Source of the DNA: an uncultured Bacteroidales bacterium | Lineage (GTDB): Bacteria > Bacteroidota > Bacteroidia > Bacteroidales > ML635J-15 | Reading direction: 5' to 3' | Assembly: GCA_937982115.1 (NCBI GenBank) | Contig: CALJNE010000009.1 | Span: 24,582 to 88,581, forward strand | Length of the DNA: 64,000 nucleotides | Shown: positions 48,200 to 63,148 of the stretch, piece after piece | How the letters are laid out: every line of letters begins with the position of its first letter | Position numbering within the stretch: position 1 is the stretch's first letter | Made by a program: the position numbers and the translations under genes | The notes under the pieces: generated by a model | Seen by the model: only the letters and a program-made list of their open reading frames with translations | Told to the model about the DNA's origin: nothing | The model's database searches: none

Positions 48200-49042
48200 T
48201 TATTGCATGAAATGAATTTCGTCAATCCAGCTTATGATGTATTCAAGATCGCAAAGATTGGGATTATGAATGTGCCACTTCCCGCGTATGTTTAGCTCAT
48301 TTAGAGCCATTTTAAAATGAGATAGAGCTATTCCCATATCAATTTTTTGCAGATCTGTAGATTTGGGAGCTCCGGTAATTTTTTCTCTTTTGAGGTAAAA
48401 GTGATATTTACTTCCCACCTTAATAACTCGCCATGGCTGTTTATTTACTGCTGAGGGAGCAAGGCGAACACACTCAAGTGCTTGATGATATGGATCGTCA
48501 GGATCGAAAATCAAAGGATTATTTAAACTTTCTTCAAAAAATAATGTTTCGAAGTTATATCTTTTGCTTCCGTCGGTAAATGTAAGTCCTAATTTTTCTC
48601 TTAAGGTTTTATCTGCAGCTTTATATCCCACCGGAGTTATTGCCGGTATTGTTTCGTTAGGTTTTAAATCTAATAATTTAGCATAGTCTTTACGATTGAA
48701 AGTCCCGCCAATCCAGCAGGTTCCAATACCCATTGAAGTAAGACGAATTATAATTTTTTCGAGGCAGTACCCGTAATCTACTTCTGAAAATTCAAATTTT
48801 TCAACACATCCGCCAATAAAATACGAAGCATTAGAGATAAAACCATAAGTACCAAGCCTAACTTTTTCCTTAGCTTTAGCAACAGGTTTTTCAATAAAAA
48901 TAAATCTTGGTTCATTTCCAAAAGGACCCTTACAAGGATTTTGAATTAAATGAATAATTTCCTTTATAATTTCGGGGCTAAGTTCTCGTTTTTCGTACTT
49001 GCGAACAGATTTGCGTATTTTAATGGCTTCAATGTCAGTCAT
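48200..49042 (-). CDS. Nitroreductase family protein
   Basis: N-terminus IEAIKIRKSVRKY; later PSAVNKQPW, consistent with a duplicated nitroreductase fold. ATG 49042 preferred over the TTG at 49072. Confidence 0.7.
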   Translation of the reverse strand: MTDIEAIKIRKSVRKYEKRELSPEIIKEIIHLIQNPCKGPFGNEPRFIFIEKPVAKAKEKVRLGTYGFISNASYFIGGCVEKFEFSEVDYGYCLEKIIIRLTSMGIGTCWIGGTFNRKDYAKLLDLKPNETIPAITPVGYKAADKTLREKLGLTFTDGSKRYNFETLFFEESLNNPLIFDPDDPYHQALECVRLAPSAVNKQPWRVIKVGSKYHFYLKREKITGAPKSTDLQKIDMGIALSHFKMALNELNIRGKWHIHNPNLCDLEYIISWIDEIHFMQ

Positions 49043-49128
49043 TTCAATTAAAAATTCTTTGCAAAAATACAATTGCTTTTACAAATAAAATAAGGTTTTA
49101 TCTTAATAGAATATAAAATTATACTTAA

Positions 49129-52056
49129 TTATTGTTTTAAAGCATTAAACAATACTTCGATTGGATGTAAAGCATTTGCTCCCGTACCGTCTTGAATCTG
49201 ACACCTGCAACTTGTACCGGCAGCCACAATAATTTCATCATTAGCAACAGCTTTTCTAACTGCTGGAAACAAAACAAGCTCACCTATTTTCATTGAAACA
49301 TCATAATGTTCTTTTTCATATCCGAAACTACCGGCCATCCCACAACAACCAGAAGGAATTTCTTCAACATTATAATTCTTTGGCAAACTTAACATCTTTA
49401 AAGTATAATTTGTTCCGGTAATTGCTTTTTGCTGGCAATGACCATGAAACTTTATTCTGCGAATTTCATCTGTAAAATATTCTGATTGAATATTCCCTTT
49501 TTCTATCTCGGAACAGATAAACTCGTCAAATACCATAGCATTTTTAGCAAGTTTCTCAGCAATATCTCGATTTTCTTTATATGCGAGATCAGGATATTCA
49601 TCCCTAAAGGCAAGTATTGCCGATGGTTCTATTCCAACGAGCGGAGTATTTTCGTCAATCAAATCCTTTAGAATTTCAATATTCTTATTTGCTACTTTTT
49701 TAGCTTTCTTCAATAATCCTTTGCTTAAAAATGTGCGGCCGCTGATTTCAATTGGAGCAATTTTTACATCATAACCAAGACTGCTGAATAATTTTATGGC
49801 TGCAATTCCTATGTGTGAGTCTAAATATCTGGTAAACTCATCAGCAAATAGATAAATTTTCTTTTTATATTCAGCTTTTTCAGATGGAATTTGAGTTTTA
49901 AGAGTTTTTGAAAAATTTGTATAATTCAATAAAGGGAAATGTCTGTAGGGGCTGAAACCAATTATTCTTTTAAGAATTCTGGCAGGAAATTTATTTTTCA
50001 TAAAGAAATTAGAAATTCCTGAAAATGGAGTCATTAGTTTATGAAAAATCGGCAGATACCCAACAGCAAGCGATCTGAGCGGAATTGCATTATAATCATA
50101 ATAATGTTGTAAGAATTCCATTTTCAGTTTTGCGACATCAACTCCAGAAGGACATTCAGATTTACAGGCTTTGCATAAAAGACACAAATCCAGCACATCT
50201 TTAATTTCCTTAGAGTTAAATGCATAATTAAGACTATAATTTGTAAAAATTTCGCGTATAATATTAGCTCTTGCACGAGTTGAATGCTTTTCATCCAGAG
50301 TCGCCTGAAAACTTGGACAAAGAGTTCCACCGATAACTGCAGTTTTTCGACAATCACCGCTTCCGTTACATTTTTCGGCAGTTCGCAAAAAACCACCTGT
50401 TCGGCTGAAGTCAAAATAAGTTTCAAATTCAGGAGTTATCATTCCGGGCTGAAAACGCAAAGAAGTATTCATTGGTGGAGTATCCACAATTTTATTCGGA
50501 TTTAAGATTCCTTTCGGATCCCAAACTGTTTTAATTTGTTTGAATAGGTCGTAAAGCTTTTGACCATACATTAACGGAATAAATTCTCCCCGCAGACGTC
50601 CGTCTCCGTGCTCACCACTGAGAGAACCTCGATGTTTTTTTACCAGCAAAGCCGTTTCGTAGGCCACAGTGTGAAAAAGTTTTACGTGTTCGGGATCTTT
50701 GAGATTTAATACTGGTCTCAGGTGCAACTCCCCTGTTCCAATGTGTGCATAGTAAACACACTCAAGACCTAATTTCCCCAGAAGTGCCGAAAATTCTTCC
50801 ATATAATTGGGCAAGTCTTCAGTCCTAACTGCAGTATCTTCAACCACAGGAACAGGTTTTGCATCACCCGGCATATTTGTTAAAACGCCCAAACCTGCTT
50901 TTCGTAATTCCCATACTCGCGAAATATCTTTTCCTTTGATCACGGGATAAGCATACCCTATTCCGTTGGCGATTAGTTCATTCTTTAGATTTTCGGCTAA
51001 AATGTCTATTTCGGCAGGATCATTGGCAAACCACTCTACTATTAAAATCGCAGCAGGATCTCCATCAACAAAAAAGCGGTTTCGGTTTTGATTAATATTC
51101 TCTTTTGTAAGATCCATGATTTTTTTGTCCATCAATTCAATTGAAACCGGCTTGTGCTTCAGGGCAATTAAATTTGCATAAAACACCTCTTTAAGTTCAT
51201 TAACGTGAACACACATCAGAGCTTTGTGTTTTGGAGGCATATCCACAAGATTGAGTTTCAATTCAGTTACTACGGCCAATGTTCCTTCGGAACCGGCAAT
51301 CAACTTTGACAGATTAAACTTATTACTGCTTTCGGAAAAAATACAAGTATCAAGTAGTATATCCAGAGCATAGCCTGTATTTCGCCTTTTAATATCAGGA
51401 TGCGGATATTGCTGTTTTATTTCATCAACAATTTCCTTATTACTGAGAATTTCATTTATCTTTCTGTAGATTTTTCCTTCGAGACTTGCTAATTTGAGTT
51501 TTTCCAGAAATTCATCTTTATCAAGATCTTTAAAAACAACCACAGAACCATCAGCCAGAATAGCTTCAATTTCGAGAATATGATCCCTGACAGAGCCGTA
51601 AATTAATGAATGAGCCCCGCAGGAATTGTTTCCCAGCATTCCTCCAATCATACATCTGTTGGAGGTAGAAGTTTCAGGCCCGAAAAATAAATTGTGTTTT
51701 GCAAGTTCTTTGTTCAATTCATCTAAAACTACTCCGGGCTGAAGTCTTACCCATTTTTCTCCGGTATTAATTTCGATGATTTTCGAAAAATTATGACCTA
51801 TATAAACGACTACACCACCACCCACAACCTGTCCCGCCAGAGATGTACCTGCAGCACGAGGAATCAAATTAACTTTATGTTTATCAGCTGCTTTTACTAT
51901 GGTAATCAAATCATCCTTATCCTTCGGAATCAAAATCATTGCAGGAATTTCGCGATATGCCGAGGCATCGGTAGCATAAAGTTTTTTATAGATTTCATCA
52001 TTCTTTATTTCACCCTTGAAAGATTTTTTTAACTCTTTGTAAAAACTCTGAATCAT
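49129..52056 (-). CDS. FAD-linked oxidase fused to Fe-S/CCG domains (GlcD-GlcF/D-lactate dehydrogenase-like)
   Basis: FAD-binding PCMH motifs (PRAAGTSLAGQ), a ferredoxin-like cluster (CLLCKACKSECP) and C-terminal CCG-type cysteines (CCGMAGSFG). ATG 52056 preferred. Confidence 0.85.
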   Translation of the reverse strand: MIQSFYKELKKSFKGEIKNDEIYKKLYATDASAYREIPAMILIPKDKDDLITIVKAADKHKVNLIPRAAGTSLAGQVVGGGVVVYIGHNFSKIIEINTGEKWVRLQPGVVLDELNKELAKHNLFFGPETSTSNRCMIGGMLGNNSCGAHSLIYGSVRDHILEIEAILADGSVVVFKDLDKDEFLEKLKLASLEGKIYRKINEILSNKEIVDEIKQQYPHPDIKRRNTGYALDILLDTCIFSESSNKFNLSKLIAGSEGTLAVVTELKLNLVDMPPKHKALMCVHVNELKEVFYANLIALKHKPVSIELMDKKIMDLTKENINQNRNRFFVDGDPAAILIVEWFANDPAEIDILAENLKNELIANGIGYAYPVIKGKDISRVWELRKAGLGVLTNMPGDAKPVPVVEDTAVRTEDLPNYMEEFSALLGKLGLECVYYAHIGTGELHLRPVLNLKDPEHVKLFHTVAYETALLVKKHRGSLSGEHGDGRLRGEFIPLMYGQKLYDLFKQIKTVWDPKGILNPNKIVDTPPMNTSLRFQPGMITPEFETYFDFSRTGGFLRTAEKCNGSGDCRKTAVIGGTLCPSFQATLDEKHSTRARANIIREIFTNYSLNYAFNSKEIKDVLDLCLLCKACKSECPSGVDVAKLKMEFLQHYYDYNAIPLRSLAVGYLPIFHKLMTPFSGISNFFMKNKFPARILKRIIGFSPYRHFPLLNYTNFSKTLKTQIPSEKAEYKKKIYLFADEFTRYLDSHIGIAAIKLFSSLGYDVKIAPIEISGRTFLSKGLLKKAKKVANKNIEILKDLIDENTPLVGIEPSAILAFRDEYPDLAYKENRDIAEKLAKNAMVFDEFICSEIEKGNIQSEYFTDEIRRIKFHGHCQQKAITGTNYTLKMLSLPKNYNVEEIPSGCCGMAGSFGYEKEHYDVSMKIGELVLFPAVRKAVANDEIIVAAGTSCRCQIQDGTGANALHPIEVLFNALKQ

Positions 52057-52132
52057 AATAAACTTTTTTTGCAAAGTTATTTTTATATCCACAAATTGAA
52101 ATGATAATTATTAGTAAATAGCCACATTTTTT

Positions 52133-52140
52133 TAATTTTG
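52133..52140 (+). promoter_or_regulatory. -7 box TAnnTTTG upstream of holA
   Basis: taattttg lies 14 nt before ATG 52154. Confidence 0.4.
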
Positions 52141-52153
52141 TGAGAAATAAAAA

Positions 52154-53161
52154 ATGATGGAATACGAAAAGATATTAAATAATCTTAAAAATAAGATTTT
52201 TAAACCGATATATGTGTTTTACGGTGAAGAATCTTACTTTATTGATAAACTGACAGACTTCATTGAGGAGGATGTTCTTCTACCGTCGGAAAAAGCTTTT
52301 AATCAAACTATTTTGTATGGAAAAGATGTAACAGCAAAGGATATAATTGAAGTTGCCCGACGTTTTCCGATGGCTGCTAATCATCAGGTTGTAATTGTAA
52401 AAGAAGCCCAGGACGTAAGTGATTTGCAAAAGTTAGATGTTTATCTTACTAACCCGATGATTTCTACTTTGCTGGTGTTAAATTTAAAAAACACAAAAAC
52501 ACTTGACAAAGGAGCTAAAATTTTTAAACCTGCAAACAAATTCGTTGAATTTTTTGAATCAAAAAAATTAACCGAAAAACAAATATACGCATGGATTAAT
52601 AATTTTCTTAAAAACGAAGGACTTACAATTTATCCCGATGCCTTGAGACTATTTTACGAAAGTATCGGCAATAATCTTAATGCAATTAATAATGAACTCG
52701 AAAAAATAAAGATTTTTTTACCTAAAGGGTCCAATATTAATGTTGAAACCATTGCTTCCTTAATTGGCGTAAGCAGGGATTTTAATGTATTCGAACTGCA
52801 AAAAGCCCTCGGATATCGGGATATTCCAAAAATTTACAAAATTATGGATTATCTGATGACAAGCAACAATAAGGAAAATTCATTAATAGCTGTTACCATC
52901 AGACTTTTTGACTATTTTTCCAAAATAATCAAAGTTCACACACTTAAACAGAAAGATAAAAATTCTATTGCCGCAGAGATTGGAGTTCCGTCATTCTTTG
53001 CCGATGAATATATAACTGCTTGCAGAAATTATTCACTTGCAAAATGTTTTATGATTGTTTCATATTTACGCGAGACACACATGAAAGCTCTTGGCGTGAA
53101 TAATAATGTTAAATCCGAAAAAGAGCTCGCCATTGAACTAATTTTTAAAATGATACATTAA
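52154..53161 (+). CDS. holA: DNA polymerase III subunit delta
   Basis: 335 aa. The N-terminal pattern PIYVFYGEESYFID...VVIVKEAQ and the overall size are typical of HolA. Confidence 0.7.
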   Translation: MMEYEKILNNLKNKIFKPIYVFYGEESYFIDKLTDFIEEDVLLPSEKAFNQTILYGKDVTAKDIIEVARRFPMAANHQVVIVKEAQDVSDLQKLDVYLTNPMISTLLVLNLKNTKTLDKGAKIFKPANKFVEFFESKKLTEKQIYAWINNFLKNEGLTIYPDALRLFYESIGNNLNAINNELEKIKIFLPKGSNINVETIASLIGVSRDFNVFELQKALGYRDIPKIYKIMDYLMTSNNKENSLIAVTIRLFDYFSKIIKVHTLKQKDKNSIAAEIGVPSFFADEYITACRNYSLAKCFMIVSYLRETHMKALGVNNNVKSEKELAIELIFKMIH

Positions 53162-53170
53162 TCTTTTTTT

Positions 53171-53779
53171 ATGGTAACAATAATAATAGTAGTAACTCTA
53201 ATAATTTCAGTCTATGCATGGCAGGACAAAAATTTGTTTCAAAAGTTTTTATTGTCTCCGTATATTTTAGTGAGGAATAAAGAATATCACAGATTGCTTA
53301 CTCATGGATTTCTTCACGGGAATTGGCTACATCTTATCGTAAACATGCTGGTTTTTTGGTCGTTCGGAAGAGTTTTATTGATTTATTTTAATATCATCTG
53401 GAGTAATGGTAATTTGGTTTTTCTTTTATTCTATATGAGTGCAATAGTGCTATCTTCGTTATATTCGGTTGTTAAACACAAAGATAATTATGAATACAGT
53501 GCAGTTGGAGCAAGCGGCGCAACCTCGGCAATAGTATTTGCATTTATTTTCTTTGAGCCATGGAATTTGGTTTATTTTTTCGGAGTATTGCCCGTTCCGG
53601 GAATAATTTTCGGATTGTTTTACTTAATTTATTCCTATAAAATGGCTCAAAAACAAATTGACAATATTGGTCATGACGCACATTTTTGGGGAGCAGTTTA
53701 TGGTTTTTGTTTCCCGATTATTTTCAAACCACAGCTGATTCAACATTTTATCCAAAGCTTATTAAGTTTTAACTTTTAA
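53171..53779 (+). CDS. Rhomboid family protein (third in window)
   Basis: Motifs HGFLHGNWLHLIVN, GASGATSA and HDAHFWGAVYG. Confidence 0.7.
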   Translation: MVTIIIVVTLIISVYAWQDKNLFQKFLLSPYILVRNKEYHRLLTHGFLHGNWLHLIVNMLVFWSFGRVLLIYFNIIWSNGNLVFLLFYMSAIVLSSLYSVVKHKDNYEYSAVGASGATSAIVFAFIFFEPWNLVYFFGVLPVPGIIFGLFYLIYSYKMAQKQIDNIGHDAHFWGAVYGFCFPIIFKPQLIQHFIQSLLSFNF

Positions 53780-53782
53780 AAA

Positions 53783-54283
53783 ATGAATAAAGCAGTTTTT
53801 CTCGATAGAGATGGAGTTATAAATAAAGAAACAGGACAATATACAACCCGTGTTGAAGATTTCATAATAAATGAAGGTACTGGCGAAAGCATAAAACTTT
53901 TAAAAGATTCCGGATTTTTAGTTATCGTAATTTCAAATCAGGGAGGAATTGCAAAATCACTGTATTCCCATGAAGATGTACTGGAAATGCACTTAAAACT
54001 ATGTGAATACCTTTATAATTATAATACTGCCATAGACGACTTTTATTACTGTCCTCATCACCCCGACACCGGTCTATGCTTATGCAGAAAACCCGACAGC
54101 TTGTTAATCGAAAAAGCTATAGCAAGATATAATATTTCAATCGAAAATTCATATTTCATTGGAGATTCCGAAAGAGACATTGAAGCTGCTAAAAAAGTTG
54201 GCATTAAAGGAATTAAAATAACTCCTAATGAAAATATATATAATATCTGTAAAAACATTTGCAACCGGAATAATAGCGAGTAA
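53783..54283 (+). CDS. gmhB: D-glycero-beta-D-manno-heptose-1,7-bisphosphate 7-phosphatase-like HAD-IIIA phosphatase
   Basis: Motifs FLDRDGVIN, VISNQGG, the zinc-site cysteines CPHHP..C.CRKP, and GDSERD. Confidence 0.75.
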   Translation: MNKAVFLDRDGVINKETGQYTTRVEDFIINEGTGESIKLLKDSGFLVIVISNQGGIAKSLYSHEDVLEMHLKLCEYLYNYNTAIDDFYYCPHHPDTGLCLCRKPDSLLIEKAIARYNISIENSYFIGDSERDIEAAKKVGIKGIKITPNENIYNICKNICNRNNSE

Positions 54284-54294
54284 AAATATTTAAG

Positions 54295-55158
54295 ATGACA
54301 AAACACATAATGCTTAACGGAGAAATCATGCCGGCAGGAAGTCCTGTTTTGCATCATAACAGCAGAGCCATTCGTTTTGGAGATTGTTTTACTGTTGTGT
54401 TACGAGGTAATTCATCAAAAATATTTTTCCCGGATGAGTATTTCGAATACATGCTTCTGTGTTTGCAAGAACTTAATTATACAATTCCCGAAACTTTTGT
54501 AAAGTCCATATTTTACAATGACTTATACCTGATTCTGCAAAAAAATCGCATTTATAAAGGATTCAAAGCTTACATTAGTTTTATCAGAGATTTAGATGAA
54601 AATAATCGCGAACAGCAAAGCACATCTATTTTAATTTCTCCTGAGAAAATCACTCCAGAGTTTTATGAGATTAAAGAACCCGGAAAAACTATAGATATTT
54701 CTATTTCTCAATGTATTCCGCAATTTTTATTTGAGCAAAAATATTCTCATCTTATTGAAAATTATCTTATAAGTAAAAAAATCTATCCCGCTGCTTCCGG
54801 AATTGATATTTTTCTTTTTGATGAAAATAAAAACATCATCAGAACAAGAAATTCAGCAGTATTTTTTGTAAAAAAAGACAAAATATTTATCCCCGAAAAT
54901 CTTCCGAATGACAGTTTAAAGATTTTTACATACATCATAATTGCCATTGCCGAAATTTCGGGAATAAAAACAGAAAAGTTACAAATCAATATTTCCGACC
55001 TGAATAAATTCGATGAAATTTTTACAGCAGATTTGATTAATGGAATTCAATACGTTAACGGGATAGAAGATATAAGATATTATAAAAACATTTCAAGACA
55101 TTTAGCTCAAAAACTTGATAAAGTGATTAAAAAGACTTTGGAGGATAAAGTTTTATAA
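54295..55158 (+). CDS. Aminotransferase class IV-like (PabC/BCAT fold) protein, tentative
   Basis: 287 aa. The call rests only on N-terminal similarity (LNGEIMPAGSPVLHHNSRAIRFGD) and the length. Confidence 0.35.
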   Translation: MTKHIMLNGEIMPAGSPVLHHNSRAIRFGDCFTVVLRGNSSKIFFPDEYFEYMLLCLQELNYTIPETFVKSIFYNDLYLILQKNRIYKGFKAYISFIRDLDENNREQQSTSILISPEKITPEFYEIKEPGKTIDISISQCIPQFLFEQKYSHLIENYLISKKIYPAASGIDIFLFDENKNIIRTRNSAVFFVKKDKIFIPENLPNDSLKIFTYIIIAIAEISGIKTEKLQINISDLNKFDEIFTADLINGIQYVNGIEDIRYYKNISRHLAQKLDKVIKKTLEDKVL

Positions 55159-55179
55159 ATAAGTCAGGAGCACGACGTG

Positions 55180-55301
55180 AATGTCTCGACCTAAAATAAG
55201 ATTACACAAAAAGTAAAATTTTGAGATAAAAAAAGAAATTATGTATAAATTTGTGGTAGAATTTAAATGTTAAACTGTAAACTTTTTTAGGACGAGACAT
55301 T
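55180..55301. repeat. 17-bp inverted repeat pair (1 mismatch) separated by 88 nt in convergent intergenic region
   Basis: aatgtctcgAcctaaaa (55180-55196) against ttttaggAcgagacatt (55285-55301). It lies at the left border of the decayed R-M islet. Confidence 0.6.
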
Positions 55302-55384
55302 ATAATCATTTGTGCTTGTTTGACATTAAAGCATGCTTCGAATTACCCGCAAACTTTTAGGCTCAAACGTCAGCATATAATTTT

Positions 55385-56263
55385 TTAAAATTCTAATTCA
55401 CAACCGTAATCAGTTTTTGATTCTTCAATCAAAAATAATTTAAGTTGGCTGTTATCAATAAAACCTTCAATTTTTTTTCTAAACTTTGTTGCAATTTTTG
55501 GATCTTCAATTTCCATTTTTCTTTTTTTACTCAAAATCAAATATTCTTCCTGCAAATCAATTACTAAAAACTTTCTATTTGCCAAATTGGCTGCAATACC
55601 TGTTGTAGAACTACCTGTAAATGGGTCTAAAATCCAGAAGTTTGGCTTTGTTGAAGCCAAAATAAGTCTTGTCAAAACTGAAAGTGGTTTTTGGGTGGGG
55701 TGTTTGCCACACGATTTTTCCCATAGTGCAATTGCGGGCAATCTCCATACATCTTTCATTTGTTTATTCCCGTTGAGTTTTTTCATTAATTCATAATTAA
55801 AATAATGAGGTATTTTTTCAGTTTTACGTGCCCAAATTATTTGTTCGGTTGAATGAGTAAAGTAACGACAAGAAAAATTTGGAGGTGGATTTGTCTTTTC
55901 CCATGTAATAATATTTAAAATCTTAAAACCTAATTCCATTAAAATTTGTCCAATAGAAAAAATATTGTGCACTGTACCACTTATCCAAATAGTGGCATCG
56001 TCTTTCATTTTATCACGAACCAATGAAAGTCATTGGCGATTAAATTGATTTATATATTCTAATCCATGAGATTTGTCCCAGGCACCTTTGTTTACACTTG
56101 CAATTTTTCCGTTTTGAATTGTTAATCCATCATTTGATAAAAAATAGGGAGGATCAGCAAAAACCATATCGAACTTGTGGTGGAATTGAGGTAAAAGTTC
56201 CATTGTATCTTCTTTGAGGAGATAGAATTTTTTGTCGTTAGATTTAAAATATGGTTCTAGCAT
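55385..56263 (-). pseudogene. Beta-class N6-adenine DNA methyltransferase, DpnA/M.MboIC-like (GATC type), interrupted by in-frame TGA
   Basis: A single frame runs 56263->55385 and is split into 77-aa and 212-aa ORFs in the track. Motif IV is FADPPYFLSN; motif I is LDPFTGSSTTG; also WISGTVHNIFS and SCRYFTHSTE. The TGA at 56032-56030 replaces the conserved Trp in ..QFNRQ[W]LSLV... Confidence 0.8.
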
Positions 56264-56281
56264 TTACGAAATTTCATTTTT

Positions 56282-56796
56282 TTATTCTTCAATTCCTGCC
56301 CAAGACATATTTCTACCTTCTCCAGTTGGATAGTTTACATCTTCTTGTCCCCAAACCCATTTGTATGCTTTTATTAAGCATTCTTGACTTTCTCCATTTC
56401 GAAATTTGAGAGCATAGATTTCATCTATAAATCGTTTGGTTCTTCTCCATTCAAAGTTCTCTCTAGAATAGCAATTAATTTTAACGTTTCATCTTTGTCT
56501 TACTCTGATTTATAATCTAAATCTTCTAAAATTTGCTTGTGAGTATTTTGCCATAATCCATTTTCACTTGGTTGAAAAATAAAAACGAGAAAATCCTCCT
56601 TCTTTGGACAACCACATACAGACTTTCCCCCTGGTTTAGTTATGACAATTTTTCTTCCGTCAGCTAATTGCTCTACCTCATAGACTCTGTATTCTATTGC
56701 TTCAAGCTTCTGAACGAAATTTTCTCGTGTATCGTTCCTGATTTCTAATCTTTTTAAGTCTATAGAATGTTTATAGTAATTTTTCTTTTTAAAACT
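56282..56796 (-). pseudogene. Broken ORF of unknown function between endonuclease and methyltransferase (no start codon, in-frame TAA, frameshift)
   Basis: Frame A is open 56796->56503 (98 codons, no ATG/GTG/TTG), with TAA at 56502-56500. Coding-like sequence then continues in frame A to 56425 and in the -1 frame from 56488 to a TAA at 56284-56282. No part of it appears in the track. Confidence 0.5.
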
Positions 56797-57580
56797 CTAT
56801 TACAATTTCATCTCTGATTTTTTTAATAAAGTTTTCAAGTGTTTTTAGATTATACATACTCGGAATAATGTTAAATGCCTCTTCCAATTTATTTTTAGCA
56901 GATAACCATCCCTTACCATCGGTAATCCATACAAATTCAAAATTTTCATATTGATTAATTTTAGGTGCAAGATCGGAATAGGACCTCGCTGTTTCATTCA
57001 GTTTGGAACCTCCACCATTATAGAAATTTGTTTCAATTAAATACGTTTTCTTTTTGGTTTTAATCACAAAATCAAAACATTTAATATCAGCTCCTAAACT
57101 TGATATTTCTGGGAATTCAGTGCTGCTCACCTCCTTTTTATAAAAGATTTTTGCTTTATCAAAAAACAAAGATATTGCTTTTGACATATTTTCACCACCT
57201 CGGTTTTTTCTGGCATTAGTGTCTAAACCAACTTCAACACCAAAAACATAATCTACTAAATTCTTTATTTCTTTATTCCTAAAAATTTCACCTAAACCTG
57301 TTTCTTCCACATATTCACATATACTTTCAGGTGACGAGAAGTAAGTATCAAGAAACACAATTTCACCCTTATTATTAAAAGTTTTTGCTTTTTTATTTTT
57401 TCGAACGGCAATTAAAATATCCAATATCTCGAAGCATCGGGGATTTTCTTTGTAAAGTTCTTTTACAGCTTTTTTAACATTATTAAATCTATTCATCATC
57501 CAGAACAAAACTGCCCCACTTCCCACAAATGGTTCAATAAAAGTAAAATTACTGTCATAAACAAATTTTGTAAAGCCTTT
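56789..57580 (-). pseudogene. Chimeric ORF: Dam-type methyltransferase motif-I segment fused in frame to DpnII/MboI-family restriction endonuclease body
   Basis: The open frame reads KGFTKFVYDSNFTFIEPFVGSGAVLFWMMNRFNNVKKAV (Dam motif I) and then continues directly into an endonuclease-like sequence (NLVDYVFGVEVGLDTNARKNRGG...FDFVIK...YLIETNFYNGGGSKLNETARSY...WITDGKGW). There is no DPPY motif anywhere in the ORF. Confidence 0.6.
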
Positions 57581-57651
57581 TCAATTACATCAATTAACTG
57601 AGTTTTCCCTCCTGCCCACTTCAAAAAAGGTTTTGCTGAAATTTTATTCAT
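57496..57651 (-). pseudogene. Dam-family adenine methyltransferase N-terminal fragment (51 codons), out of frame with the downstream motif-I segment
   Basis: ATG 57651. MNKISAKPFLKWAGGKTQLIDVIEK.. matches the Dam/DpnM N-terminus. The frame is lost at or near the A4 run (57581-57578). Adding one A would give ..IEKGFTKFVYDSNFTFIEPFVGSG. Confidence 0.65.
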
Positions 57652-57707
57652 GAAATTTATTTTCTTATTTTTTTTTTATTCAAGCAAATATACAAATTTT
57701 TAAGGCT

Positions 57708-57746
57708 AAAAAAATAACCCCCAAATAAATTCTGGAGGTTATTTTT
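57708..57746. terminator. Bidirectional hairpin terminator downstream of the giant T9SS cargo gene
   Basis: Stem taaccccca/tggaggtta (one mismatch) flanked by A7 on the left and T5 on the right. Confidence 0.55.
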
Positions 57747-57763
57747 CTTGATTGAATTTAAAA

Positions 57764-60700
57764 CTACTTCTTAACAATCTTATGCAGAATGTGGTTGTTT
57801 TTACCAAAAACTTTTAAAATATAAGTTCCGGAACTTAAATCAGGCAAATCAATTGTCAGATTATCGGATTGAATTTCTGTTTCAAAAACTATTCTGCCTG
57901 TAATATCAGTAATACTGAGTTTTTCGTAACCGCCCGAATAAGCATTTTCAATTTTTATGTTAGTATCAAAAGGATTTGGATAAATCAAAATAGCAGCTCC
58001 ATTTTCGGTAATATTTACTGCCGGATATACTTCAATGGTAAAAATACAATTTCCGATACAACCAGTATTTGGGTTTTGATAGTAATAATAGATTTCATGA
58101 ACGCCAATTCCGGCAGCAAGAGGATCAAATTCCGTAACAGTTTCATTATTAAACACATACCATCCACCTTGAGGACTTGCTCCGGTTAATTCAAAAACTC
58201 CGCCATAGTATGAAACTAATTGATTTTCGGGGCATTCCACAACAGGAATCGGATAAACTAAAACATTGAAACTGCATGAAAAATTTCCATAAGTATAAGT
58301 TATTTGATGATAACCGGGATTTACTGCATTGGGATTGAAAACTCCGGAAACGACACCATTTCCGGAATATACCCCTCCTTCAGGACTTGCTCCGGTTAAC
58401 ACTACAGGTTCAGAATTCTTACATACGGAAAATCCTTCAGGACATGTTACTGTTACAGGTTCATACACATTTATAATAAACGAGCAAGAATTTTCACACA
58501 ATTCACCATAAACATAAGTAATTTCGTGCTGTCCGATTCCGGTTTGAGCAGGATCAAACATTGTGGTCTGGATCCCGTTATAAAAGTAAGTTCCGCCTTG
58601 TGGATAAGCTCCCGACAAGGTAAAGGAAGCAGAATTTACCGCAATGCTGATATTCCCGGGACAGCTTACTTCAGGAATAGTATTTACAATTATTTCATAA
58701 CTGCATGTACCGGTTTGTGTTTGATAAATTACCGTATGCGAACCTGCACCGTATTGTGAAGGATTAAAACTTGTAACCGGACTGCCATTTATAAAATAAG
58801 TTCCGCCAACAGGTGTTGCTCCGCTTAAAGTAAAAGAATTGCCATTTTCACACACATAAACATTCAAAGGACACTGAACTGCAGGTTCAACCTGAATTGT
58901 AAAATTACAGGACGCACTGCAAGAATTTGGATCAGTATAAGTATAGGTTACTGTATAATTACCAACACCATAAATGTCTGGATCGAAATTACTTACTGTA
59001 ACACCATTGATAGTAAAAACTCCTCCACCCGGAGAAACCGCTAATCCTGATAAATTCAATGGGTTATCATTTACATTCATAAGTAAATTCCCCGGACATG
59101 TTACAACAGGAGGATTTACTACATTTATGTAAAACTGACATGACTGTGAGTTGTAAGTATAGCTTATAAGTTTTTGTCCTACACCGGCAATTGAAGGATA
59201 GAAAACTCCATCAACTACTCCAGTTCCCGAATAAACTCCGCCCGGAGGTGTTCCTCCTTGCAGAATCACACTGTTAACATTCGAACAAACCGAAAAGTTT
59301 GAGGGGCATTCAACTACATCGGGTTGATATACGCTTACAATAAAACTGCAAGTATTTGAACATAATGTAGTTGGATTTGTATATGAATATTGAACAATAT
59401 AATCTCCTACTCCATAGGTTGATGGGTTAAATGTGCTAATCACATTAGAATTTAATCTGTATTGACCACCAACTGGACTTGCTCCGGTTAAAGTAAATTC
59501 CGGATCGGTAATTTGCTTGTAAATATTTGCTGGACAACTTACGGTTGGCAGTGGATTTACCGTAATACTGAACTGACAGCTTTCTGTTTCGAGAGTGTAA
59601 GAGATAGTATGTACCCCAACTCCTGCAAATGCGGGATTAAAAACACCTCCAGCCACTCCAGTTCCTGTGTATATTCCTCCTACAGGACTAGCACCTGTTA
59701 AAGCAAATGCGGGCTCAGAAATACAAACTGAATAATTAGAAGGACAATCAGGCACTACCGGTGGATTTAAGGCTCTAACACCATCCGATGTCCGAACATT
59801 ACTATATAATCCTGCATTATTATGTGCTTTCACACTAACATAATACATTGTTCCCGGAATGAGAGTAACAGAATTATTTGTGAAAGAAAGATTTAATCCA
59901 TTATTTGTCCAGTTAATCAGTTCTGTACCACCGGGAGTAGTTCCAACAGCATAATAATAAGCCTGAATTCCGCTTTGTGGGTCGGAACTTGCTGTCCAGT
60001 TAGCTGAAATGCTGTTGGAAACATAAGTTGTATCAATATCAGCTCCTAATCCATCGTTTACAGTAGCAACCATCACTGGTGCTGTCCAATCAGTTTTTAT
60101 TGATTGCTGAGCAATAGCACTAATATTTTTTGCAGAATCTGAAACAATGGAATATATTTTTGCAGAATATGAAGTTGAATTTGGACTCTGATATCTTATG
60201 TCGGAGTTAGCATCCCCCATAGAAATAGTTACATCAGGATATCTTGTTCTGAAAACTCTGAAATTATCAACCGACATTAAGGAATTTCCCGAACGGAACG
60301 AAACATAATCTCCTGTTTGATAGGGATTTTCATCCTTATATTCTCCCACAAGGACATTATTCATATAGACATAATGCTCGCCGGTAATTCTGTCGCAAAC
60401 AAGTTTTATATTGTACCATTGTCCAAGGTTCAACGAAATATTATAATATTTTTCGAGTGAGAAGACATTATCGGTTACTTTATAGAATTCTAATTGTTGT
60501 GAAGTGTGTCTGAACCAGATAAAATATCCGTTTCCTCTGTTTGTTTGAGTGGGATCAGATGCAAAATAATGAAATCCTCCTCTTCTATTAGTTCCAGAAC
60601 CTTCAATTTTTAAATCAAATTCATATAAGTATCTGTTGGATAAATTTTGTTTGAGGTATGCCCAAATATTGGTATTTCCCTCAGATTCGTTAGTTTGTAC

Positions 60701-62968
60701 AAGAGCTCCGTTTGAAATAGTCCATGTTCCAACCTGCTGAGTCCATTCAGCTCCGATTTCTGAATCAAAATTATTGTAAGCAAAACCGCGTTCGGCATTA
60801 GCTGTCCATTTTGTACCATTAAAATCCGATACCGAATAAAATCTTTTTTCTATTCCGCTTAATTCATCACTGTCATTGAAATTAATCTGGAAATTTGAAG
60901 TCTGCCATTCTCCGCTGACATTAAAACTTGTTTGCGGATTTGTAAAATCAGTAAATATGTTTTCGGCATAACTTGTTGACCAATTATTATTGTTGTCTAT
61001 TAATAAAGTTCTGATTCTACCGGCTTCCTGTGAAGAAGAGGCACTTTGATATCTGATTTCTTTTGAGGTATTAAGTCCTGCAGTTACATTAACACTTGTA
61101 GTACGGTTCACATAAACTTTCACGTCATCGTATTCAGCCTGACATTCTCCTGCTCTAAGCGAAATAGCAGTTCCTGAGGTAAATGGAGATGAATCAGTAG
61201 TTGTGGCCGCAAGAATATTATCAACGTAAACGTCTATTTTTCCTGTATTGGTATTTAGTACCACCTTAACATCATACCATTGATTAACATTAATTGTGAA
61301 ATTTTGTGTTACATAATATCCTCCACCTGAAGAATATGAATTATTTACATATTTATAAATCTGAACGGTATTATTATCTGCCCTGAGATATACCATATAA
61401 GAGTTACCTCTTCCGTCAGCAGCCGGGTCGGAACAGAAAAAATGCATACCTGCTCTTCGATTTGTTCCTGTTCCGGAAATTTTCATTTGCCAGTGGTAAA
61501 GATAGATATTTCCACTTTGTTGTGTTACATTGGCATAAATGTTTGTGTTTACTAAGCTTTGATTAGATTGCAATAATCTTCCTCCCGAAATACTCCATGT
61601 TCCGCTGACAGTTGTCCATTCCGTATGAATTGCAGAAGTAAAATTGTCGTTGAAAAACCCACGTGAAGAATTTGCACGCCATTCAGTGCCATTATAATCC
61701 ATTACTTGATAAAAGCTATGTTTTACACCTGTTCCGCCAACATTATCAGCATCAGAAAAGTTTACAAAAAAATCTGAATTATACCATTTTCGAGATTTAT
61801 TTATTTCTGTTGTTGGAGGAATATTATCTGTAGGTGTAGTACAATCATCTATTATTTGTTTTGTTTGGGTTCTAATATTTGGTAAAAGAGCGTACAAAGC
61901 ATTACCTGGACAGGTAGTTCCTCCGGGATTTACATCTTTGTGCCCGCAAATTCGCGGTAGAGTTATCCATTGAGTTCCGGCTTGATTTAAAATAGATACA
62001 GAACTTAAAGGATCGTAACTTTTATGGTCATACCACCACGCTAAAAACTCTGCGCATTTTTGCAATTGAGGTGTAGTTGGTGCAGTTCCAGGAGCATCAC
62101 TATTTCCCAAAAAATTCAACCCAATGGAATATGAATTAGAATACCCGGCATGTGCTCCTTTTACATCTTGATTTGGAAGATTAGGATTATGACGTCCCTG
62201 ATAAAAGTTCCCGTATTTATCAAATAAATAATTATATCCAATATCACTCCAACCATTGCTGTTTACATGATAATTCCAATATGATCTCACTACTGCAGCT
62301 CCATCAGTGTAAGAATCCGGGCTTGCCCCATGATGTATAACTGTATGAGTACAACTTGTAAGATAGGTAGGAGTATAATTAGGATTATGACAATTTTGAT
62401 AAGAACCGCACCATGATGATCTTGGAATTATAACCGGAAACTCCGGGCAGGATTTCGCTCCATTAAGTTCTTCTTCCCCTGACTTAAAATTAAGTTCAGA
62501 AGTCGGTTTTACATTTAATAAAATAAGATAAACCTCGGTAATATAATCTGATTCCGGAGGAAAAATATAAAACTCGACCGAATCGTGCTCAAATTCATTA
62601 AATCCGAACATTAGGTCGGATTTATAAAAATTATCTTTTGTGTCTTTTGGATTATAATGTCCGTCAGAATATTTCCAATCGCTCCAACCTGTTTTATTCT
62701 GATATACTCGATATGCAATTTCGTAATTTCCTGCATCCCAAGAGCCTACTCCAGATTTCCAGCCCAAAGCAAGCGAAGTATATGCAACCGGGGTTTTTAA
62801 CTTTAGCCCATAAGCTCCATTAGCTTCGGAATAAATCTCGCTCTCAATTTTATAACAAACCAGCAAATCATCTCCTGTTCGTACTGAATAAAACTCTTTT
62901 AAAACTTCTTGTGAATAAACGTAAAAGAACAGATTAATAAAAATCAATGTGTAAATGACTCTTCTCAT
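57764..62968 (-). CDS. Giant T9SS-secreted multidomain protein: N-acetylmuramoyl-L-alanine amidase (PGRP/Amidase_2) + 2x LamG-like modules + FN3-like + 8 Cys-framed repeats + T9SS C-terminal sorting domain
   Basis: 1734 aa from ATG 62968 (signal peptide MRRVIYTLIFINLFFYVYSQ; the track uses TTG 63001). Amidase_2 motifs are THTVIHHGAS, GWSDIGYNYLF, GAHAGYSNSYSIGL and ICGHKDVNPGGTTCPG. See the separate repeat and CTD features. Confidence 0.8.
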   Translation of the reverse strand: MRRVIYTLIFINLFFYVYSQEVLKEFYSVRTGDDLLVCYKIESEIYSEANGAYGLKLKTPVAYTSLALGWKSGVGSWDAGNYEIAYRVYQNKTGWSDWKYSDGHYNPKDTKDNFYKSDLMFGFNEFEHDSVEFYIFPPESDYITEVYLILLNVKPTSELNFKSGEEELNGAKSCPEFPVIIPRSSWCGSYQNCHNPNYTPTYLTSCTHTVIHHGASPDSYTDGAAVVRSYWNYHVNSNGWSDIGYNYLFDKYGNFYQGRHNPNLPNQDVKGAHAGYSNSYSIGLNFLGNSDAPGTAPTTPQLQKCAEFLAWWYDHKSYDPLSSVSILNQAGTQWITLPRICGHKDVNPGGTTCPGNALYALLPNIRTQTKQIIDDCTTPTDNIPPTTEINKSRKWYNSDFFVNFSDADNVGGTGVKHSFYQVMDYNGTEWRANSSRGFFNDNFTSAIHTEWTTVSGTWSISGGRLLQSNQSLVNTNIYANVTQQSGNIYLYHWQMKISGTGTNRRAGMHFFCSDPAADGRGNSYMVYLRADNNTVQIYKYVNNSYSSGGGYYVTQNFTINVNQWYDVKVVLNTNTGKIDVYVDNILAATTTDSSPFTSGTAISLRAGECQAEYDDVKVYVNRTTSVNVTAGLNTSKEIRYQSASSSQEAGRIRTLLIDNNNNWSTSYAENIFTDFTNPQTSFNVSGEWQTSNFQINFNDSDELSGIEKRFYSVSDFNGTKWTANAERGFAYNNFDSEIGAEWTQQVGTWTISNGALVQTNESEGNTNIWAYLKQNLSNRYLYEFDLKIEGSGTNRRGGFHYFASDPTQTNRGNGYFIWFRHTSQQLEFYKVTDNVFSLEKYYNISLNLGQWYNIKLVCDRITGEHYVYMNNVLVGEYKDENPYQTGDYVSFRSGNSLMSVDNFRVFRTRYPDVTISMGDANSDIRYQSPNSTSYSAKIYSIVSDSAKNISAIAQQSIKTDWTAPVMVATVNDGLGADIDTTYVSNSISANWTASSDPQSGIQAYYYAVGTTPGGTELINWTNNGLNLSFTNNSVTLIPGTMYYVSVKAHNNAGLYSNVRTSDGVRALNPPVVPDCPSNYSVCISEPAFALTGASPVGGIYTGTGVAGGVFNPAFAGVGVHTISYTLETESCQFSITVNPLPTVSCPANIYKQITDPEFTLTGASPVGGQYRLNSNVISTFNPSTYGVGDYIVQYSYTNPTTLCSNTCSFIVSVYQPDVVECPSNFSVCSNVNSVILQGGTPPGGVYSGTGVVDGVFYPSIAGVGQKLISYTYNSQSCQFYINVVNPPVVTCPGNLLMNVNDNPLNLSGLAVSPGGGVFTINGVTVSNFDPDIYGVGNYTVTYTYTDPNSCSASCNFTIQVEPAVQCPLNVYVCENGNSFTLSGATPVGGTYFINGSPVTSFNPSQYGAGSHTVIYQTQTGTCSYEIIVNTIPEVSCPGNISIAVNSASFTLSGAYPQGGTYFYNGIQTTMFDPAQTGIGQHEITYVYGELCENSCSFIINVYEPVTVTCPEGFSVCKNSEPVVLTGASPEGGVYSGNGVVSGVFNPNAVNPGYHQITYTYGNFSCSFNVLVYPIPVVECPENQLVSYYGGVFELTGASPQGGWYVFNNETVTEFDPLAAGIGVHEIYYYYQNPNTGCIGNCIFTIEVYPAVNITENGAAILIYPNPFDTNIKIENAYSGGYEKLSITDITGRIVFETEIQSDNLTIDLPDLSSGTYILKVFGKNNHILHKIVKK
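57767..58012 (-). other. T9SS C-terminal sorting domain (CTD) of the giant protein
   Basis: The last 82 aa read ..AILIYPNPFDTNIKIE...LSITDITGRIVFETEIQ...IDLPDLSSGTYILKVFGKN..., a canonical Por secretion tail pattern. Confidence 0.85.
58013..59746 (-). repeat. Intragenic array of 8 Cys-framed ~70-76-aa repeats organised as (A-B) x 4
   Basis: Every repeat starts CP and contains L(T/S)GA.P.GG.Y. A-type repeats have C-x6-C near the start and SC.F near the end. B-type repeats end in C-x3-C-x-F. Boundaries were computed from the protein positions (aa 1086-1663 of the 1745-aa track ORF). Confidence 0.8.
60077..61813 (-). repeat. Intragenic tandem duplication of a ~290-aa module containing a LamG/concanavalin-like jelly roll
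   Basis: aa ~397-685 align with aa ~686-975. Shared strings include NF(S/N)D.D..(G/S)G..K.FY.V.D.NGT.W.AN..RGF, GTW.IS.G.L.Q.N.S..NTNI, YLY...KI.G.GTNRR.G.H.F.SDP...RGN.Y and QWY..K.V. Confidence 0.7.
61874..62434 (-). other. PGRP/Amidase_2 catalytic domain of the giant protein
   Basis: aa ~190-376 of the track ORF. Candidate Zn ligands are present: His in VIHHG, and His and Cys in GHKDVNPGGTTCPG. Confidence 0.7.
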
Positions 62969-63148
62969 AATGTATTTTTTTGATTTTTTGGCAATATACA
63001 AAATTTTAAAAATACAACAATGTTAAAATTCAATTTTTTAGATATAACAACGTTTTTCATTACATATTATAATGTTTTTTGATATTTTTCAACATCGTGT
63101 TTAACCTGTCATATCGAATAAATAATTCATAATTTTTAAGAATTTAAC

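What the first reader, a model, noticed from the sequence alone, without database searches (positions are those of the whole stretch)
55385..57651. A GATC-type (MboI/DpnII-like) restriction-modification islet in which every gene is broken
Seen: minus-strand order is Dam-like M1 fragment, then a DpnII-family endonuclease body, then an unknown broken ORF, then a DpnA-like M2. The lesions are a frameshift near an A4 run (57581-57578) and loss of the entire M1 catalytic region (no DPPY), with M1 motif I joined in frame to the endonuclease. The middle ORF is startless and carries an internal TAA and a frameshift. M2 has a Trp->TGA nonsense codon. That is four or more independent lesions in 2.3 kb, while the other ~60 kb of the window contains no broken gene that I could find. 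Established: DpnII encodes dpnM/dpnA/dpnB, and MboI encodes two methylases flanking the endonuclease, both for GATC. Inference: this is a snapshot of complete R-M system death. The likely order is endonuclease inactivation by the deletion first, then drift of the now useless methylases. This is not sequencing noise. It also predicts that the host's GATC sites are unmethylated by this system.
Basis: partly seen in the sequence, partly recalled or inferred. Interest (0 to 1): 0.6.

Follow-up and report, generated by a model that had tools for sequence, protein, structure and literature searches.

The report
Dead GATC restriction-modification operon remnant
This 2.3-kb stretch is the decayed wreck of a four-gene MboI/DpnII-type (GATC) restriction-modification operon in an uncultured Bacteroidales bacterium; such decay is ordinary, but here it is well documented, because a sister species keeps only a 36-base scar at the same spot.

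Summary
On the minus strand of 55385-57651 lie four remnants in order. First come about 62 codons of a Dam-class methylase (M1). They are fused in frame to a DpnII-family endonuclease that lacks its first ~52 codons. Next is a broken 174-codon gene (X), and last a beta-class N6-adenine methylase (M2) with Trp78 changed to TGA.

I count eight lesions:
- a 1-nt deletion in M1;
- a ~0.88-kb deletion across the M1/R boundary at a GCTGTA microhomology;
- in X, a lost start codon, two TAA codons and a 1-nt deletion;
- the TGA in M2.

An independently assembled contig (5 SNPs in 12.9 kb) carries every lesion, plus two further GGA->TGA changes, so this is not sequencing noise. Fourteen assemblies of a sister species (flanks 91% identical) have the site "empty" except for the first 12 codons of M1. 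The operon was therefore ancestral at this locus and is being erased.

"Endonuclease died first" is not supported. The endonuclease body is the best-preserved part and X the most damaged.

The "unknown ORF" belongs to a widespread family with no family assignment, found between R and M2 of such operons. Its confident predicted fold has no PDB match. A decayed R-M system is a known kind of thing, so overall interest is low to moderate.

The parts
57652..57763 (-). Intergenic DNA upstream of M1. It holds the presumed M1 promoter region and the hairpin after the convergent T9SS-protein gene.
   Evidence: It aligns at 84% identity with the same interval of 14 sister-species loci, which otherwise lack the operon.
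57571..57651 (-). M1 (Dam/D12-class methylase) codons 1-27, MNKISAKPFLKWAGGKTQLIDVIEKAL, in the original frame.
   Evidence: tblastn M1[3-27] at 88% identity; Pfam and TIGR00571 match the N-terminus. The first 12 codons survive as a scar in the sister species.
57570..57571 (-). Site of a 1-nt deletion (CC->C of a Pro codon) that shifts the M1 frame. The shifted frame ends at TGA 57498-57496.
   Evidence: DNA alignment to the M1 genes of L001, L003 and L004; 51-aa ORF 57496-57651.
57464..57569 (-). M1 codons ~28-62 in the shifted frame, including motif I (EPFVGSGAV).
   Evidence: tblastn M1[25-63]; three-frame translation.
57464..57469 (-). Junction of the ~0.88-kb deletion. GCTGTA is shared by M1 (..KKAV/I..) and R (..KAAV..), so M1 codon ~62 is fused in frame to R codon ~53.
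   Evidence: In relative L003 both parent sequences, AAAAAAGCTGTTATT (M1) and GCCGCTGTAAAAGAG (R), match the window up to and from this hexamer. The distance between them is 881-886 bp in L003 and L001.
56789..57463 (-). Body of the DpnII/MboI-family endonuclease (codons ~53-279 plus TAA). It has no start of its own and no further lesion in the window.
   Evidence: Pfam PF04556 profile 38-277 of 278, E 1.5e-79. Identity to 80 genome loci is 84-86% for the closest. There are 0 private changes at invariant columns.
56264..56787 (-). Remnant of gene X (174-aa family of unknown function). It carries AAG instead of ATG (56787-56785), TAA at 56502-56500, a T4->T3 frameshift at 56431-56429, and TAA at 56284-56282. 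It also has G35V, I81N and I145V at invariant positions.
   Evidence: 1075 homologs, all about 174 aa, the best at 89% identity; alignment to L001; coordinates; invariant-column test.
55385..56263 (-). M2, a beta-class N6-adenine methylase (DPPY at codons 37-40, then DPFTGSSTTG). It is interrupted by TGA at 56032-56030 (Trp78) and carries G18E and G234V at invariant positions.
   Evidence: Pfam PF01555, E 2e-54; 80% identity to the L001 M2; private-change test.
55159..55384 (.). Non-coding tail downstream of M2. It is present only in this lineage and contains a 17-nt inverted repeat (55180-55196 / 55285-55301).
   Evidence: It is absent from the sister species, where homology ends near 55166; repeat found.

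Best explanation
This is a non-functional, vertically inherited remnant of a four-gene MboI-type Type II restriction-modification operon.

The original order was Dam-class methylase M1, DpnII-family endonuclease R, accessory gene X, then beta-class N6-adenine methylase M2. Its presumed target is GATC.

The operon sat between the class-IV aminotransferase gene and the large T9SS-secreted protein gene before two Bacteroidales species diverged. In the window's lineage three kinds of damage disabled it:

- An illegitimate recombination or slippage event at a 6-nt microhomology removed ~0.88 kb. That took out the M1 catalytic domain and the first ~52 codons of R in a single step. Such a step is safe for the cell, because restriction is lost no later than modification.
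- Point lesions hit M1 (frameshift) and M2 (Trp78 to stop).
- Four lesions hit X.

Nothing full-length can be made, so the locus now neither cuts nor methylates DNA. It is drifting and being erased. A co-occurring variant has two more stop codons, and the sister species has deleted everything except 12 codons of M1.

Shown: the gene identities, the lesions, their reproducibility, the ancestral position and the sister-species scar. Inferred: the GATC specificity, the deletion mechanism, the absence of residual activity and the order of events.
For: - Family assignments.
- Intact four-gene reference operons: L001 and L002, L083 to L089.
- Lesion map from DNA alignment.
- Independent assembly: L090 shares all lesions, differs by 5 SNPs in 12,864 bp, and has new GGA->TGA changes at 57094 (R) and 56448 (X).
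- Sister species: 14 loci carry an identical junction and the scar MNKIPAKSFLKW, with flanks 91% identical to the window.
- Genetic code: TGA is a normal stop in 7 window genes, and the 1745-codon neighbour has no in-frame stop.
- Relaxed constraint: X has 3 private changes at invariant columns against a mean of 0.11 in relatives. M2 has 3 against 0.48.
- GATC is depleted in the window (117 observed against 187 expected, O/E 0.63). This fits past restriction pressure.
Against: - No read-level data could be inspected.
- The window and L090 might derive from related or even the same samples.
- Pairwise dN/dS against available relatives is below 0.1 with saturated dS. Most divergence therefore predates inactivation, and relaxed selection is visible only in a handful of sites.
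- A 245-codon GTG-initiated ORF (56789-57526) covering the R body remains open in the window, so a truncated product cannot be excluded by sequence alone.
- GATC specificity rests on family membership only.
Confidence: 0.9

Rival explanations
1. The lesions are sequencing or assembly artefacts in an otherwise intact operon.
For: Two of the eight lesions are 1-nt deletions in short homopolymers (CC, TTTT). The source appears to be a metagenome-assembled genome.
Against: A separately assembled contig has all eight lesions. Four lesions are base substitutions (one start-codon loss and three to stop codons) and one is an 0.88-kb deletion. The other ~60 kb shows no frameshifted gene. Conserved residues are also replaced. 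The sister species shows real loss at the same locus.
Confidence: 0.03
2. Part of the remnant is still active. M2 might be made at a low level by UGA read-through and act as an orphan GATC methylase, or the N-terminally truncated endonuclease might be expressed from the internal GTG.
For: M2 has a single nonsense codon with an intact start and motifs, and the R body is an uninterrupted 245-codon ORF with no private change at invariant columns.
Against: M2 also has G18E and G234V at positions invariant in 63 relatives. An active nuclease without any cognate methylase would be lethal. In the variant L090 both the R body and X acquire new stop codons. The sister species dispenses with the whole operon.
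Confidence: 0.05
3. The cassette was acquired recently by horizontal transfer in an already dead state. The sister species would then show the true empty site.
For: The same operon type sits in unrelated genomic contexts in other taxa, so it is mobile. The 226-bp tail 55159-55384 is unique to this lineage.
Against: The 'empty' site of 14 sister loci contains the M1 start codon and 11 further M1 codons, including the conserved FLKW, together with the M1 upstream region. These are contiguous with the shared flank. A 12-codon M1 fragment cannot be an insertion target.
Confidence: 0.02

Closest known systems
MboI restriction-modification system of Moraxella bovis (mboA - mboB/R - mboC).
   Same: A Dam-class methylase, a DpnII-family endonuclease and a second, beta-class N6-adenine methylase lie in the order M-R-M on one strand. 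76 of the 82 related loci fetched by then (L001-L082) have M1, R and M2, 73 of them in this order.
   Different: Here an extra 174-codon gene (X) lies between R and M2, and all four genes are broken. Specificity was not tested.
DpnII system of Streptococcus pneumoniae (dpnM-dpnA-dpnB) and LlaDCHI of Lactococcus.
   Same: The same three protein families are present (PF02086, PF01555, PF04556). A second methylase accompanies a Dam-type one.
   Different: The DpnII order is M1-M2-R. Among the fetched loci that order is seen only in L050, L051 and L055 (Cardiobacteriaceae, Neisseria, Eikenella). DpnII has no X gene.
Decay of R-M systems into pseudogenes or orphan methylases, as catalogued for example in Helicobacter pylori and Mycoplasma genomes. 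This is general knowledge; see PMC9465063 and PMC4687349 for context.
   Same: Multiple inactivating mutations in R and M genes, loss of R no later than loss of M, and eventual deletion.
   Different: Here all genes are dead, so no orphan methylase is left. Successive stages are visible together: intact copies in other genomes, the decayed copy here, a variant with further stop codons, and a 36-nt scar in the sister species.

Membership tests
MboI/DpnII-type Type II R-M system (GATC) | Endonuclease of the DpnII family (PF04556) | tested here: met
   E 1.5e-79, profile positions 38-277 of 278; 84-86% identity to endonucleases of intact operons.
MboI/DpnII-type Type II R-M system (GATC) | Complete endonuclease with its N-terminal alpha-helical domain (DpnII/MboI-NTD, about 100 aa; PMC3710099) | tested here: not met
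   The first ~52 codons are deleted and no start codon of its own remains.
MboI/DpnII-type Type II R-M system (GATC) | Dam/D12-class methylase with motif I (FxGxG) and catalytic DPPY | tested here: not met
   Only profile positions 1-45 of 253 are present. Motif I (EPFVGSGAV) is there but frameshifted, and the DPPY region is deleted.
MboI/DpnII-type Type II R-M system (GATC) | Second, beta-class N6-adenine methylase (DPPY before FxGxG) | tested here: inconclusive
   PF01555 matches full length with DPPY and DPFTGSSTTG present, but codon 78 is TGA and two invariant Gly residues are replaced.
MboI/DpnII-type Type II R-M system (GATC) | Co-directional operon in the order M1-R-M2 | tested here: met
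   The order in the window is the same as in 73 of the 82 related loci.
MboI/DpnII-type Type II R-M system (GATC) | Recognition and cleavage of GATC, and protection by G6mATC | not testable with these tools
   Inferred from family membership only. GATC O/E of 0.63 in the window is compatible.
Functional R-M system (any type) | Uninterrupted reading frames for at least one methylase and the endonuclease | tested here: not met
   Eight lesions are spread over all four genes.
X family (174-aa protein between R and M2) | Sequence homology over the full length, and position between the DpnII-family R and the N6_N4 methylase | tested here: met
The position is the same in L001, L002, L005, L083-L086, L088 and L089; in L087, cut at the contig end, X lies just upstream of the methylase.
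Alternative genetic code (TGA = Trp or Gly) | In-frame TGA at conserved Trp/Gly positions across many genes, and TGA not used as a stop | tested here: not met
   TGA terminates 7 of 44 complete ORFs. The other long ORFs have no in-frame TGA, and the remaining lesions are TAA codons or frameshifts.

The most novel reading that the evidence does not exclude
The broken 'unknown ORF' is the window's copy of an undescribed, strongly conserved 174-aa protein family (X). X may be a genuine fourth component or hitch-hiking partner of MboI-type GATC R-M operons.

- It has more than 1000 close homologs at 60-89% identity across Bacteroidota and Campylobacterota.
- It always sits between R and M2, often with abutting or overlapping stop and start codons.
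- It has no Pfam, NCBIfam or PADLOC model.
- Its predicted fold is confident (pLDDT 89, pTM 0.86) and has no PDB match.
- Its only structural neighbour is an uncharacterised Streptomyces phage protein.

The R-M2 junction would then be a cargo slot of this operon family. In other genomes it holds GmrSD, an OLD-like ATPase-Toprim protein, a PD-(D/E)XK-like protein, or two other unknown small families. X would be a new accessory or defence module.
Probability: 0.4. Interest if true: 0.55.

Novelty: new member of a known kind. Interest (0 to 1): 0.3.

Why it matters
As a dead R-M system it changes little. R-M genes are known to be gained, inactivated and lost quickly.

Its value is as a clean, datable example:
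- A single microhomology deletion removes the methylase catalytic domain and the nuclease N-terminus together.
- A variant assembly of the same locus carries further stop codons.
- A sister species is reduced to a 36-nt scar.
- Residual GATC depletion remains in the host DNA.

It therefore shows one safe route by which a potentially addictive R-M module can be lost, and how fast the wreck is erased.

The practical consequence is for annotation. No GATC methylation or restriction should be attributed to this locus.

The more forward-looking lead is the X family and the variable cargo slot between R and M2. These are testable with intact operons from relatives.

Tried and rejected
- **Alternative genetic code.** Rejected from stop-codon usage.
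- **Phase variation or programmed frameshifting.** Rejected. There is no long repeat tract, the two 1-nt deletions sit in runs of 2 and 4 bases, and they coexist with nonsense codons and a large deletion.
- **Pairwise dN/dS to date the inactivation.** Uninformative. dS is saturated for R (pS 0.75) and omega is below 0.1 for all genes. I replaced it with counts of private changes at invariant columns.
- **Finding the source genome among GTDB representatives.** Not found. The best locus is 86% identical at protein level.
- **Exact look-up of the 245-aa fused ORF.** Not on record.
- **Function of X.** Nothing came from any of these:
  - Pfam, NCBIfam and PADLOC gave no family at the thresholds used. 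The one listed match is a marginal PADLOC Csm3 hit for P0043 (E 0.009).
  - PDB sequence profile: only a chance hit at E 0.17.
  - Foldseek against PDB: best E 0.09, TM 0.19.
  - BFVD: one uncharacterised phage protein at E 1e-3, TM 0.52.
  - Profile search of 1.84 billion representatives: 241 clusters, a few tandem duplications, and no fused known domain.
  - Distant relatives sit on short contigs without R-M genes upstream.
  - tblastn against plasmid and phage collections: no match.
- **Solved structure for a DpnII-family endonuclease.** None exists by sequence search. The effect of the N-terminal truncation on activity therefore cannot be judged structurally.
- **Cassette boundaries.** Not defined. 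The 226-bp tail and the M1 upstream region have no counterpart next to other cassettes.
Full report
**What is in the sequence.** I read 55385-57651 on the minus strand. It contains four pieces in order.

- A 51-codon ORF begins MNKISAKPFLKWAGGKTQLIDVIEKAL and runs into a stop.
- In another frame the sequence continues FVYDSNFTFIEPFVGSGAVLFWMMNRFNNVKKAV and runs straight into KELYKENPRCFEILD...IEF.
- A stretch follows with no long ORF.
- Last come two ORFs of 77 and 212 codons, separated by a single TGA.

Pfam assigns the fused frame to the D12/Dam methylase family (profile positions 1-45 of 253) followed by the DpnII endonuclease family (positions 38-277 of 278, E 1.5e-79). The last gene is a full-length N6_N4 methylase (E 2e-54). 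NCBIfam agrees, matching Dam TIGR00571 at the N-terminus only. The middle stretch matches nothing in either library.

**Reference operons.** The repaired middle ORF finds 1075 proteins with E <= 0.001. All those listed are about 174 aa, and the best is 89% identical. Contigs carrying the closest ones show an intact, tightly packed operon: M1 (307 aa), R (279 aa), X (174 aa) and M2 (315 aa).

A scan of one genome per species returned 80 loci with a related endonuclease. With the two metagenome contigs that makes 82 loci (L001-L082). tblastn with the four reference proteins shows M1-R-M2 in 73 of the 82, M1-M2-R in three (Neisseria, Eikenella and a Cardiobacteriaceae MAG), and no detectable M2 in six. 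The system is therefore MboI-like in order and not DpnII-like.

**Lesion map.** I aligned the window to L001, L003 and L004 base by base and took exact coordinates.

- M1 has lost one C at 57571/57570 (TTGCCAAAA has become TTA-CAAAA).
- About 0.88 kb is missing between M1 codon ~62 and R codon ~53. In L003 the M1 side reads AAAAAAGCTGTTATT and the R side reads GCCGCTGTAAAAGAG. The window reads AAAAAAGCTGTAAAAGAA. The junction therefore lies within GCTGTA (57469-57464), a microhomology. This points to slippage or illegitimate recombination, which is an inference. The fusion is in the original M1 frame.
- X has AAG for ATG (56787-56785), TAA for GAG (56502-56500), T3 for T4 (56431-56429) and TAA for TTA (56284-56282).
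- M2 has TGA for TGG at 56032-56030.

That makes eight lesions, and every gene is hit.

**Is it real?**

- TGA is an ordinary stop for 7 of the window's ORFs. The neighbouring 1745-codon gene has no in-frame stop, and the other lesions are TAA codons or frameshifts. A variant genetic code is therefore excluded.
- The rest of the window is densely packed with long ORFs. The only sizeable gaps hold three tRNAs, purS and a glycosyltransferase missed by my greedy ORF picker. Ten adjacent same-strand genes sampled with Pfam either match complete profiles or have no Pfam match.
- A contig assembled independently from run ERR9287621 (L090) covers window 48295-61158. It differs at only 5 positions and carries all eight lesions. 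Two of its five differences lie in the remnant, and both turn a conserved GGA (Gly) into TGA: 57094 in the R body and 56448 in X. Relatives have Gly at both sites, so the window has the older state and L090 has decayed further.
- The window's X has three private replacements at columns invariant in 45 relatives (G35V, I81N, I145V). The mean for the other sequences is 0.11. M2 has three (G18E, W78*, G234V) against a mean of 0.48. The R body has none.

**History at the locus.** The flanking proteins identify the host as an uncultured Bacteroidales bacterium and reveal a sister species. Fourteen contigs of that species come from different samples. They have the same gene order, with flanks 91% identical, but only 152 bp lie between the class-IV aminotransferase gene and the T9SS-protein gene.

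That short spacer is not a virgin site. It contains the M1 upstream region, the M1 start codon and 11 further codons (MNKIPAKSFLKW, 32 of 36 nt identical to the window). An identical junction follows in all 14 contigs.

The operon was therefore already at this locus in the common ancestor. The sister species later lost everything corresponding to window ~55167-57615 in one deletion. The window lineage took a different, slower path.

Among the 80 species-representative loci only two others show disruptive lesions. L031 has stops in M1 and R, and L073 has a frameshift in R.

**Order of events.** The data do not show this. The single deletion removes the M1 catalytic region and the R N-terminus simultaneously. 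That is a safe one-step route, but its timing relative to the other lesions is unknown.

The surviving R body is the cleanest part, with 0 small lesions in 690 nt. X carries 4 of the 6 small lesions in 525 of 2277 nt (binomial P = 0.028, post hoc). If lesion density tracks time since inactivation, X went first and the deletion is comparatively recent. The numbers are too small for more than a suggestion.

Pairwise dN/dS against the available relatives is below 0.1 with saturated dS. Nearly all divergence therefore predates inactivation.

**Host signature.** GATC occurs 117 times in the window against 187 expected from a second-order Markov model (O/E 0.63). This is compatible with a past of GATC restriction but not specific to it. 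GCGC (0.25) and GGCC (0.34) are rarer still. The prediction that this locus no longer methylates GATC follows from the lesions but cannot be tested here.

**The middle gene.** X is the only part of the finding that is not textbook.

- Close homologs (60-89% identity) lie between the DpnII-family R and the N6_N4 methylase in every fully covered context examined: metagenomic Bacteroidota, Riemerella and Lebetimonas (Campylobacterota). In L087, cut at the contig end, X lies just upstream of the methylase.
- X has no Pfam, NCBIfam or PADLOC family.
- No PDB relative was found by profile search.
- AlphaFold2 on a 45-sequence alignment gives a confident model (pLDDT 89.3, pTM 0.86). It has an N-terminal beta-rich half and a C-terminal five-helix half.
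- Foldseek finds nothing in the PDB (best E 0.09, TM 0.19). In BFVD it finds one uncharacterised Streptomyces phage protein (E 1e-3, TM 0.52).
- A profile search of 1.84 billion representatives finds 241 clusters. Most are stand-alone proteins, a few are tandem duplications, and none carries a known domain.
- Two distant relatives sit on short contigs without R-M genes upstream.
- The hallmark motif is KWIWGQEDxNYPxGxGR.

Across the related loci the R-M2 junction is a variable slot. It is empty or nearly so in about 30 loci. Elsewhere it holds X, an 86-89-aa family, a ~184-aa family, a ~177-aa PD-(D/E)XK-like protein, an OLD-like AAA-Toprim protein, a GmrSD Type IV enzyme or a 359-aa protein.

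This suggests a defence or accessory role for X, but it is an inference from position only.

**Verdict.** The proposed order of events is not supported. Decay of R-M systems is a known phenomenon, so the finding is a new instance of a known kind and of modest interest. The X family and the cargo slot are the leads worth following.

Noticed in passing
L003-L082, interval between the R and M2 genes (for example L009 2770-4492, L010 6673-8426, L074 6661-7192, L007 5107-5379): The R-M2 junction of this operon family is a variable cargo slot. It is empty in many genomes. Elsewhere it holds X, an 86-89-aa family (also fused into 474-782-aa proteins), a ~184-aa family, a 177-aa PD-(D/E)XK-like protein, a 589-aa OLD-like AAA+Toprim protein, a 554-aa GmrSD Type IV enzyme, or a 359-aa unknown protein.
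   Followed up: partly
window 56264-56787; intact copies L001 6001-6525, L083 5001-5534, L085 5001-5531: The X family (about 174 aa, motif KWIWGQEDxNYPxGxGR) has more than 1000 close homologs and no family assignment. Its confident AlphaFold model has no PDB fold match, and the only structural neighbour is an uncharacterised Streptomyces phage BillNye protein.
   Followed up: partly
L090 8800 and 8154 (= window 57094 and 56448): In the independent assembly, both SNPs that fall inside the remnant are G->T changes on the coding strand, each turning a conserved GGA (Gly) into TGA. Two of two being nonsense is more than neutral drift predicts. They could equally be oxidative-damage artefacts in a low-coverage contig. 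Unresolved.
   Followed up: partly
L091-L104, about 7840-7910 in each: The sister species keeps a 36-nt scar, the first 12 codons of M1 (MNKIPAKSFLKW) plus the M1 upstream region. The junction is identical in 14 assemblies from different samples.
   Followed up: yes
L031 4941-6669; L073 5836-6677: Two other species-representative genomes carry decayed copies of the same operon type. L031 has stop codons in M1 (codon 55) and R (codon 178). L073 has a frameshift in R.
   Followed up: no
window, whole 64 kb: Several palindromic tetramers are depleted: GCGC (O/E 0.25), GGCC (0.34), CTAG (0.23) and GATC (0.63). The first two hint at other restriction pressures on this host.
   Followed up: no
window 55180-55196 and 55285-55301: A 17-nt inverted repeat (16 of 17 complementary, 88 nt apart) lies in the 226-bp lineage-specific tail downstream of M2. 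Its function is unknown.
   Followed up: no
window 56264-56787 compared with 56789-57481 and 55385-56263: X is much closer to the L001 copy at synonymous sites (pS 0.39) than R (0.75) or M2 (0.51) are. This suggests the X segment has a different, more recent history, so the cassette may be a mosaic or X may have been exchanged.
   Followed up: no
L092 8011-13090 (orthologue of window 57764-63001): The large T9SS-secreted protein gene next to the islet varies in length between assemblies (1735-1767 aa). In one sister MAG it is split into 1147-aa and 512-aa ORFs.
   Followed up: no
L050, L051, L055: In the Cardiobacteriaceae, Neisseria and Eikenella loci the same three families occur in the DpnII order M1-M2-R, not M1-R-M2.
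   Followed up: no
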